Part shown: one piece after another, positions 28,260 to 28,480 of the stretch
Layout of the letters: every line of letters begins with the position of its first letter
Numbering within the stretch: the first letter of the stretch is position 1
Source: Raja brachyura
Lineage: Eukaryota
Direction: 5' to 3'
DNA: 64,000 bases
Assembly (NCBI GenBank): GCA_963514005.1
Contig: OY740797.1
Span: forward strand, 20,088,001 to 20,152,000
Program-made: the position numbers and the translations under genes
The notes under the pieces: model-generated
Told to the model about the DNA's origin: nothing
Databases searched by the model: none
Seen by the model: the letters and a program-made list of their open reading frames with translations, nothing else

Positions 28260-28480
28260 CAGAGCCCAGTCCCTCCATGCACTAGAGTCTCCCAACCCCT
28301 GCAGAGTAGTTATTAAGATGGCTGATCCGTGGGCGGTTGCTGCTGGGACGCAAGTCGGGGCCTGATCAACCCCGGCTGGGTCGCCTGGGCGAGGTTGTCT
28401 GATGTTGTGAGACCCGAAACACCCGATGACTCCAGGTCACATCACTGAGGATGCGTCCCAGCGCATCTAGAAGATGTATA
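28260..28480 (+). mobile_element. Isolated 3' end of a HERO/RLE-type LINE, antisense and just downstream of gene A
   Basis: GC-rich island in AT-rich DNA that shares its RNA architecture with the 3' UTR of the RLE LINE at 36050-44042. Family assignment is partly from recall. Confidence 0.55.
28342..28462 (+). ncRNA. Candidate non-circularly permuted hammerhead ribozyme in an isolated HERO-type 3' UTR fragment
   Basis: Core: GUC 28397-99, GAAAC 28416-20, CUGAGGA 28445-51. Helices: UGAUGU/ACAUCA, GGGUC/GACCC, GGUUGU/ACACCC, CCUGG/CCAGG, GCUGGGACGCA/UGCGUCCCAGC, and a hairpin at 28353-77. Confidence 0.6.

What the first reader, a model, noticed from the sequence alone, without database searches (positions are those of the whole stretch)
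28342..28462. Second, sequence-divergent copy of the same permuted fold, with compensatory sequence in all six helices
Seen (plus strand): GCUGGGACGCA-[hairpin AG...CU]-GGGUC-G-CCUGG-gcga-GGUUGUC^UGAUGU-uguga-GACCC-GAAACACCC-gaugacu-CCAGG-uc-ACAUCA-CUGAGGA-UGCGUCCCAGC. Every helix has a counterpart in the 36136-36239 copy with different sequence. The core nucleotides, the single linking G and the element order are retained. This within-window covariation is the strongest evidence that the fold is under selection. This copy lies antisense, ~250 bp past the gene A stop codon.
Basis: seen in the sequence. Interest (0 to 1): 0.72.

Follow-up and report, generated by a model that had tools for sequence, protein, structure and literature searches.

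The report
Scrambled hammerhead ribozyme ending HERO retrotransposons
This stretch is the tail of a jumping gene (a HERO retrotransposon) in a vertebrate genome; it carries all the core letters of a hammerhead self-cutting RNA in a scrambled arrangement shared by many distant HERO relatives, so HERO elements likely use a predicted, still untested, self-cutting RNA at their end.

Summary
Observation confirmed. 28342-28462(+) holds six helices and a complete hammerhead core in S-G-C order; 36136-36239(-) has the same layout. Both are 3' ends of HERO-clade non-LTR retrotransposons: this one closes a 5'-truncated copy (28259-28489) of a high-copy, internally deleted HERO, the other a broken near-full-length HERO. 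Of 84 loci picked by protein alone, 63 carry the RNA just after the ORF. In 44 non-redundant copies the 22 strongest covarying column pairs of 2278 are all proposed base pairs; the cut-site base is C, U or A, never G; the C3-G8 pair covaries to U3-A8. Unlike published type-SGC hammerheads, stem II does not follow CUGAnGA: two extra helices make a flush four-way junction between A9 and G10.1, outside the six-permutation scheme. No Rfam match; ten paper searches found no HERO ribozyme; the scan's notes hold no earlier sighting. Cutting is untested; one RNA run showed no ends at the site, and this copy has a private stem III mismatch. Likely role: cutting tandem transcripts (15 of 49 loci are head-to-tail) into unit-length, possibly circular, templates.

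The parts
28259..28489 (+). Whole insertion: 5'-truncated copy of a high-copy, internally deleted (non-autonomous) HERO element
   Evidence: Contig depth about 2e5 inside against about 9 on both flanks in two DNA-like runs, with loose ends at 28259 and 28483-28490 (summed depth is not a copy number); no target-site duplication found
28261..28311 (+). Remnant of the HERO ORF N-terminal region (17 codons just after the zinc finger), fused in frame to the last codons
   Evidence: 13 of 17 residues identical to residues near the N-terminus of P0285 and P0371
28312..28365 (+). Last 17 codons and stop of the HERO ORF; overlaps the outer helix and hairpin, stop codon in the hairpin loop
   Evidence: 12 of 17 residues identical to the C-terminus of P0277; a minority of reads and contigs continue upstream of 28312 as endonuclease-end codons
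28342..28352 (+). Outer helix, 5' strand (pairs 28452-28462)
   Evidence: 11 of 11 pairs; two-sided changes at 6 of 6 pairs among 44 relatives
28353..28377 (+). Hairpin, flush between outer helix and stem II
   Evidence: 8 pairs; flush in 29 of 44 against 0-7 at six offsets
28378..28382 (+). Detached 5' strand of hammerhead stem II (G10.1 = 28378)
   Evidence: 5 of 5 pairs with 28411-28415; 5 of 5 in 36 of 44 relatives
28384..28388 (+). 5' strand of the helix linking stems II and I (pairs 28432-28436)
   Evidence: 5 of 5; 4 or more pairs in 37 of 44 relatives
28393..28405 (+). Block S: stem III strand, GUC triplet (predicted cut after 28399), stem I strand
   Evidence: cut-site base U 19, C 15, A 10, G 0 of 44; 28395 is U here and G in over 90% of laid depth
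28411..28424 (+). Block G: stem II 3' strand, GAAA, stem III strand
   Evidence: GAAA in 42 of 44, U16.1-A15.1 in 44 of 44
28432..28436 (+). 3' strand of the linking helix
28439..28451 (+). Stem I 3' strand and CUGAGGA core
   Evidence: CUGAnGA in 40 of 44, position 7 free; C3-G8 60, U3-A8 2, U3-G8 2 of 64
28452..28462 (+). Outer helix, 3' strand, starting directly after A9
   Evidence: first pair formed in 43 of 44
28463..28477 (+). Small terminal hairpin of the element, 12 bases before its 3' end
   Evidence: a similar hairpin pattern in 26 of 45 rows by a loose pattern without a chance control
36136..36239 (-). Sister copy of the RNA, from a different HERO subfamily (predicted cut after 36188)
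36050..44041 (-). Broken HERO element that carries the sister copy, interrupted by a Gypsy-type LTR element (37043-41643) and a CR1 piece (about 42986-43720); its 3' end near 36050 is judged by eye
   Evidence: 70-75% identity to P0004 residues 314-1162 in five pieces; repeats D1, D2; ORFs

Best explanation
The stretch is the 3' end of an internally deleted HERO retrotransposon copy and carries a conserved hammerhead core in scrambled order, predicted to cut after 28399, which intact HERO elements likely use to cut head-to-tail transcripts into unit-length RNAs that would close into circles for reverse transcription. Shown: the carrier, the six covarying helices, the core, the detached stem II and frequent head-to-tail neighbours. 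Inferred (about 0.8): family members self-cleave, with stem II stacked under the A9-G12 pair and the outer helix stacked on the hairpin across a four-way junction. Inferred (about 0.45 overall): a transcript through two tandem units is cut once per unit; the freed RNA starts with the 3' half of one ribozyme and ends with the 5' half of the next, so five helices bring its ends together for ligation; the HERO protein primes just past the terminal hairpin and copies through the sealed ribozyme, which explains why genomic copies keep about 90 bases beyond the cut and why tandems recur. This particular copy is a promoterless, truncated passenger with a weakened stem III and likely does nothing at its locus.
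For: Carrier; HERO rows in the PMC7650587 supplement (compared by eye). RNA in 63 of 84 protein-selected loci (62, L046); strict descriptor 32 of 84 downstream, 0 in 111,967 upstream bases, 0 in 179,459 reverse-strand bases. Top 22 of 2278 MI-APC pairs all proposed pairs; 90-99% paired against 26-56% when slid. Catalytic signatures: cut-site base changes at least 17 times on an endonuclease tree of 43 rows and is never G; position 7 free; U3-A8 covariation in L007 and L011, the same covariation reported in active hammerheads (PMC3088659, PMC4209133, passages). Tandems: 15 of 49 motif loci with 600 or more downstream bases have the next ORF start on the same strand, 0 on the opposite strand; same best protein on both sides in 5 of 16 listed, and L079 by eye. 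The same model was proposed for Penelope hammerheads (PMC4209133, passage).
Against: No cleavage assay. In the one raw RNA run (67 reads laid, about 6% of the run read) no place had many ends, and presumed sense depth was flat (29-34) across 28399/28400; the reads came from diverged copies (none 99% alike) in poly(A) RNA, so this is weak but negative. No indel at the cut site and no loose end at 28400 among the rows shown (254 not shown). No natural hammerhead with helices between A9 and stem II appears in the passages read; PMC10085705 states that known alignments have at most 1-2 inserted bases there, so activity of this junction is not guaranteed. L002 and L004 (U3-G8) depart from the core yet belong to a family with an intact ORF. 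Some tandems look heterologous (L055 then L032 in one contig), which circles do not explain; collapsed repeat contigs can be chimeric. The high-copy deleted family shows no tandem evidence here. L051, L053 and L069 lack the RNA, so not every relative needs it.
Confidence: 0.45

Rival explanations
1. An active ribozyme used as a brake or timer: uncut RNA is the template; cutting removes the 3' end needed for priming unless the HERO protein or a terminating ribosome blocks folding.
For: Genomic copies keep the whole RNA with no scar at the cut site. The stop codon lies inside the outer helix or hairpin in 19 of 43 loci, so translation would open the junction. Published SGC hammerheads are slow, 0.007-0.19 per min (PMC10085705 section 16). 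RNA reads span the site.
Against: Does not by itself explain 15 of 49 head-to-tail neighbours; in 23 of 43 loci the stop lies before the RNA.
Confidence: 0.27
2. A non-cutting protein-binding fold: the hammerhead-like core is kept as the 3' recognition site of the HERO reverse transcriptase.
For: It sits where LINE proteins recognise their RNA, and the non-autonomous derivative keeps it while losing about 1000 codons. Stem II is not joined to A9 (first classical pair in 2 of 44). No ends seen in RNA.
Against: Free exchange of C, U and A but never G at position 17, a free position 7 and U3-A8 covariation match catalytic constraints closely.
Confidence: 0.15
3. The RNA cuts, the two pieces stay paired through the helices, and the reverse transcriptase jumps the nick; the cut serves to free the element from host or upstream transcripts.
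For: Four helices (outer, II, linking, III) join the two products. End-to-end template jumping is known for R2 (recalled; only the title of Bibillo and Eickbush 2002 was seen in a reference list).
Against: Jumps should leave extra bases or 5' truncations at the cut; none were listed (tables 4 and 7, partly shown).
Confidence: 0.1
4. Chance pairing in GC-rich repeat DNA.
For: Single-strand folding z-score is only -2.1 and the nested minimum-energy fold lacks stems I-III; the placement script required most pairs of stems I, II and III.
Against: folding programs cannot show mutually crossing helices.
Confidence: 0.01

Closest known systems
Type-SGC hammerhead ribozymes (HRIMA-1 and variants), Eckert et al. 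2023, PMC10085705
   Same: Order S-G-C; short linker from stem I to stem II; a helix binding the other sides of stems I and II; all core bases.
   Different: There stem II's strand follows CUGAnGA directly (block C). Here it lies at the 5' end, before block S, and A9 runs into a separate outer helix; a hairpin completes a four-way junction. HRIMA-1 came from metatranscriptome contigs with hairpin ribozymes; no retrotransposon link in the parts read or in a six-term supplement search.
Penelope-element hammerheads and non-LTR retrozymes (PMC4209133; bioRxiv 10.64898/2026.07.22.740005)
   Same: Hammerhead in a retroelement terminus, head-to-tail copies, U3-A8 variant, non-autonomous derivatives, proposed circular template.
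   Different: Those are type I or minimal dimer-acting hammerheads in elements with a GIY-YIG nuclease; this one has a full stem III, crossing helices, and belongs to restriction-like-endonuclease LINEs.
5' ribozymes of LINEs: HDV-like in R2 and L1Tc (PMC6765202, passages), twister variant in Perere-3 (PMC8501958, abstract)
   Same: Self-cleaving RNA tied to a non-LTR retrotransposon; frees the element from a co-transcript.
   Different: Those mark the 5' end; this one lies at the 3' end, about 90 bases inside the element, and is a hammerhead.
HERO clade (HEROTn, HERO-1_BF) and R2 SIDEs
   Same: Single ORF with zinc finger, RT, CCHC and restriction-like endonuclease; short internally deleted derivative like the SIDEs of R2 (PMC6765202, passage).
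   Different: No structured or catalytic 3' RNA was reported for HERO in the papers searched.

Membership tests
Hammerhead ribozyme | Core CUGAnGA, GAAA, U16.1-A15.1, NUH triplet | tested here: met
   Window copy has all; 40, 42 and 44 of 44 relatives, H never G
Hammerhead ribozyme | Stems I and III flanking the cut site, supported by covariation | tested here: met
   this copy has one stem III mismatch
Hammerhead ribozyme | C3-G8 tertiary pair | tested here: met
   C-G 60, U-A 2, U-G 2 of 64
Hammerhead ribozyme | Site-specific self-cleavage | not testable with these tools
   One RNA run showed no ends at the site, inconclusive
Hammerhead types I, II, III (Rfam families) | Three-way junction in circular order; Rfam gathering score | tested here: not met
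   Order is S-G-C; no Rfam match in window or 20 loci
Type-SGC hammerhead (Eckert 2023) | Block order S, G, C | tested here: met
Type-SGC hammerhead (Eckert 2023) | Short stem I to stem II linker and a helix joining the far ends of stems I and II | tested here: met
Type-SGC hammerhead (Eckert 2023) | CUGAnGA directly followed by the stem II strand that pairs before GAAA (block C) | tested here: not met
   First such pair in 2 of 44, never 5 of 5; detached strand 5 of 5 in 36 of 44
HERO clade non-LTR retrotransposon | RT close to named HERO elements rather than NeSL, Utopia or R4 | tested here: met
   P0298 reads like the HEROTn row and P0004 like HERO-1_BF by eye; L079 ORF 64% to P0298; no tree with named outgroups was built
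HERO clade non-LTR retrotransposon | One ORF: zinc finger, RT, CCHC, restriction-like endonuclease | tested here: met
   In relatives and in the 36-44 kb copy; the 28.3 kb copy keeps only two 17-codon remnants
HERO clade non-LTR retrotransposon | Target-site duplication or target preference | tested here: inconclusive
   No duplication at 28259/28489
Retrozyme | Non-coding tandem repeat with a type I or III hammerhead in each unit, circular RNA | tested here: not met
   Single dispersed copy derived from a coding HERO; hammerhead is neither type; circles not testable

The most novel reading that the evidence does not exclude
HERO, a widespread clade of R2-like LINEs, carries a seventh hammerhead topology, with the catalytic core split between A9 and stem II by a four-way junction, as a 3' ribozyme, and replicates through self-cut, self-sealed circular RNA like Penelope elements rather than through a linear template.
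Probability: 0.4. Interest if true: 0.9.

Novelty: new variant of a known kind. Interest (0 to 1): 0.8.

Why it matters
For RNA biologists it breaks the stated assumption behind the six possible hammerhead permutations (that CUGAnGA must adjoin stem II) and supplies dozens of divergent natural sequences of about 120 bases that can be assayed in a day. For transposon biologists it puts a ribozyme at the 3' end of a LINE clade, where the LINE ribozymes in the papers read sit at the 5' end, and raises a testable puzzle: how a template cut 90 bases from its end is copied whole. R2-like elements are being developed for gene insertion, and HERO elements appear in those screens (PMC13580325, passage), so a self-cutting 3' RNA would change how their templates are designed.

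Tried and rejected
Rfam: nothing at gathering score in the window or 20 loci; six weak unrelated matches at E up to 10. No whole genome was held and metagenome contigs could not be extended, so copy counts, full-length copies and 5' ends were not examined. Viral contigs held no relative of the endonuclease (81 pattern matches, none confirmed). Nested folding does not show the hammerhead; crossing helices are outside that model. A contig of run X1 starts exactly at 28400, but it carries a variant at 28430, 31 bases in, so a k-mer branch explains it; rejected as evidence of cleavage. A classical stem II after CUGAnGA was tested and rejected. A SINE head for 28259-28311 was considered and dropped: no DNA match in window or loci, no peptide match in the first protein set, clear match to HERO N-termini in the second. 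A role in gene A is unlikely: the element is antisense to it. Read-through of the RNA upstream of an ORF was seen in only 1 convincing case of 155 long proteins (P0288), uninformative. Two-sided changes at CpG pairs among genomic copies (28349/28455) may be independent deamination and the table is unphased, so they were not counted. Rows dropped before the counts: of 86 sequences 70 were placed, 6 low-scoring placements without an intact core were removed (L015, L048, L051, L053, L069, L084), 64 kept, 44 non-redundant; the 28342 copy itself fell out as redundant.

Full report
Setting. The window is vertebrate DNA rich in CR1, L1, Gypsy and Penelope remnants; a cartilaginous fish is my recalled guess from these repeats and was not tested. 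No whole genome was held. 'Gene A' is an immunoglobulin V-C1 gene on the minus strand whose last exon, with two tyrosine motifs, stops at 28717-28715. The finding lies on the plus strand about 250 bases past it.

1. Observation. Every helix and motif is present at the stated place. In hammerhead numbering the blocks run S (cut site, 28393-28405), G (GAAA, 28411-28424), C (CUGAGGA, 28439-28451). The 36136-36239 minus-strand copy has the same layout. A descriptor of the full layout hit 4 times in 3300 shuffled windows and once in the real one; it missed the sister copy because of a hairpin bulge. Between the two copies five helices show two-sided changes and stem III none. The linking G is not a family feature (17 of 44).

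2. The carrier. The sister copy follows the stop of an endonuclease ORF that belongs to an element traceable from 44041 to about 36050, 70-75% identical to the RT protein P0004 and interrupted by a Gypsy-type and a CR1 insertion. At the finding, 28312-28365 encodes 17 residues and a stop, 12 of 17 identical to the C-terminus of P0277, and 28261-28311 encodes 17 residues, 13 of 17 identical to the N-terminal region of P0285 and P0371. The two are fused in frame, so about 1000 codons are missing. Laying four runs showed the repeat spanning 28259-28489 at contig depth about 2e5 against about 9 on the flanks in two runs that also hold both flanks; most depth continues over 28259-28311, a minority switches to endonuclease-end codons before 28312. 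So this is a 5'-truncated copy of an abundant internally deleted element. Clade: the ORF of L079, one of the two closest loci by DNA, is 64% identical to P0298, a Tetraodon polyprotein whose RT reads like the HEROTn row of the PMC7650587 supplement, and P0004 reads like HERO-1_BF and unlike the Utopia, R5 and R4 rows (by eye, no tree with named outgroups).

3. The RNA across relatives. An alignment of 30 endonuclease domains fetched the best 80 of 321 metagenome loci and 4 genome-contig loci, chosen without regard to RNA. The layout was found downstream of the ORF in 63 of 84 (62; L046, further out). Of the other 21, 12 have under 250 downstream bases, L012, L048 and L072 show decayed remains by eye, L084 is a spurious bacterial hit, L015 and L071 show nothing, and L051, L053 and L069 lack it. 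A strict descriptor hit 32 of 84 downstream regions and nothing in 111,967 upstream or 179,459 reverse-strand bases. In 44 non-redundant copies the 22 highest of 2278 MI-APC column pairs are all proposed base pairs; helices are 90-99% paired against 26-56% when slid by 1-3. [quoted passage not shown] A freer test placed the outer helix from its 3' strand alone; a hairpin then ended flush against stem II in 29 of 44, against 0-7 at six offsets. Features that placement did not fix match hammerhead chemistry: the cut-site base is U 19, C 15, A 10, G 0 and changes at least 17 times on an endonuclease tree of 43 rows; position 7 takes all four bases; C3-G8 becomes U3-A8 in L007 and L011, as in active natural hammerheads (PMC3088659, PMC4209133).

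4. What is odd. The bases after CUGAnGA do not pair with those before GAAA (first pair 2 of 44). The partner of the strand before GAAA lies upstream of block S (5 of 5 in 36 of 44, G10.1-C11.1 in 37), while A9 runs without a linker into an outer helix, which abuts a hairpin, which abuts G10.1. This is a four-way junction inside what Eckert et al. call block C and assume cannot be interrupted (PMC10085705). It can be read as a type-SGC hammerhead closed into a circle and reopened between A9 and G10.1. That stem II stacks under A9-G12 while outer helix and hairpin stack on each other is inference.

5. This copy. Position 28395 is U here and G in over 90% of laid depth, leaving a U-C mismatch in stem III. 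In a nested ensemble stem III has probability 0.01 here against 0.92-0.99 in five relatives and 0.39 in L032. It is antisense to gene A and has no promoter of its own that I identified. It is best seen as a slightly decayed passenger.

6. Mechanism. Genomic copies keep about 90 bases beyond the predicted cut, ending 12 bases after a small hairpin, so the inserted template must contain the sealed site. In 15 of 49 motif loci with at least 600 downstream bases the next HERO ORF starts on the same strand, none on the opposite, often with a recurring 5' motif about 60 bases after the core. Five have the same best protein on both sides and L079 continues into its own family; L055 and L032 are different neighbours in one contig. 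I favour the Penelope-like model (PMC4209133): cut once per unit, re-pair the two half-ribozymes, ligate, prime internally, copy round. Against it: 67 RNA reads from one poly(A) run showed no pile-up of ends and flat depth over the site, though from diverged copies; mixed tandems need another cause; repeat contigs may be chimeric. Rivals are a brake on uncut templates, possibly tied to translation (stop codon inside the outer helix or hairpin in 19 of 43), a non-cutting protein-binding fold, and jumping across a nick.

7. Prior knowledge. Rfam 15 has no match. Ten library searches listed no paper on a ribozyme in HERO or on this junction; most subscription papers, Repbase Reports, Dfam and patents are outside the library. 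Seen: PMC10085705 outline, parts 2-4 of 8, section 16, first part of the discussion and a six-term supplement search; PMC7650587 passages and supplement part 12 of 19; passages of PMC4640811, PMC13580325, PMC10294476, PMC6765202, PMC11472068, PMC6155905, PMC3088659, PMC4209133, PMC10162972, PMC10761166, PMC13725137 (plus part of its reference list) and bioRxiv 10.64898/2026.07.22.740005 (supplements closed); abstract and outline of PMC8501958. PMC13725137 mentions hammerheads 'containing additional helices', citing Weinberg et al. 2015, which I did not see; it could bear on the novelty of the junction. The scan's own notes held no look-alike.

8. Verdict. Real, conserved structure: near certain. 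Self-cleaving at family level: about 0.8. Circle mechanism: about 0.45. It works like a hammerhead, is not a member of types I-III or of type SGC as defined, and is best filed as a new variant in a new genomic role. Interest 0.8.

Noticed in passing
window 28715-34076 (minus): Immunoglobulin V and C1 exons and a last exon with two tyrosine motifs resembling inhibitory motifs, in a CpG-rich region; looks like an inhibitory immune receptor gene. A similar C1 exon fragment appears near 62.3-62.9 kb.
   Followed up: partly
window 28293-28345 (+): The junction of the internal deletion folds into a 17-pair interrupted hairpin just upstream of the RNA; not checked for conservation.
   Followed up: no
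window 10514-14773 (+): Uninterrupted 1419-codon Gypsy-type gag-pol frame, apparently a young LTR retrotransposon; a decayed relative at 37043-41643 sits inside the HERO copy.
   Followed up: no
window 8591-9349 (+): Penelope-type GIY-YIG endonuclease fragment; no classical hammerhead found near it by Rfam.
   Followed up: partly
L083 (contig of 539 kb labelled Rhodospirillales MAG) and L081 (Brevinema MAG): HERO endonuclease remnants with the complete RNA motif in contigs labelled bacterial; L083 is followed by a run of A. Probably misbinned host DNA, but a transfer was not excluded.
   Followed up: no
L031, L033, L035, L041, L055, L060, L073, L079, about 60-95 bases after the core: A recurring structured 5' untranslated region (short hairpin followed by conserved repeats) precedes the next HERO ORF; may be another conserved RNA.
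   Followed up: partly
L051, L053, L069 downstream of the ORF: A HERO-like sub-lineage without the hammerhead motif; its 3' region may hold a different structure (no Rfam match for L051 and L069).
   Followed up: partly
L002, L004, L007, L011: Core variants U3-G8 and U3-A8 fixed in two subfamilies; useful natural tests of activity.
   Followed up: partly
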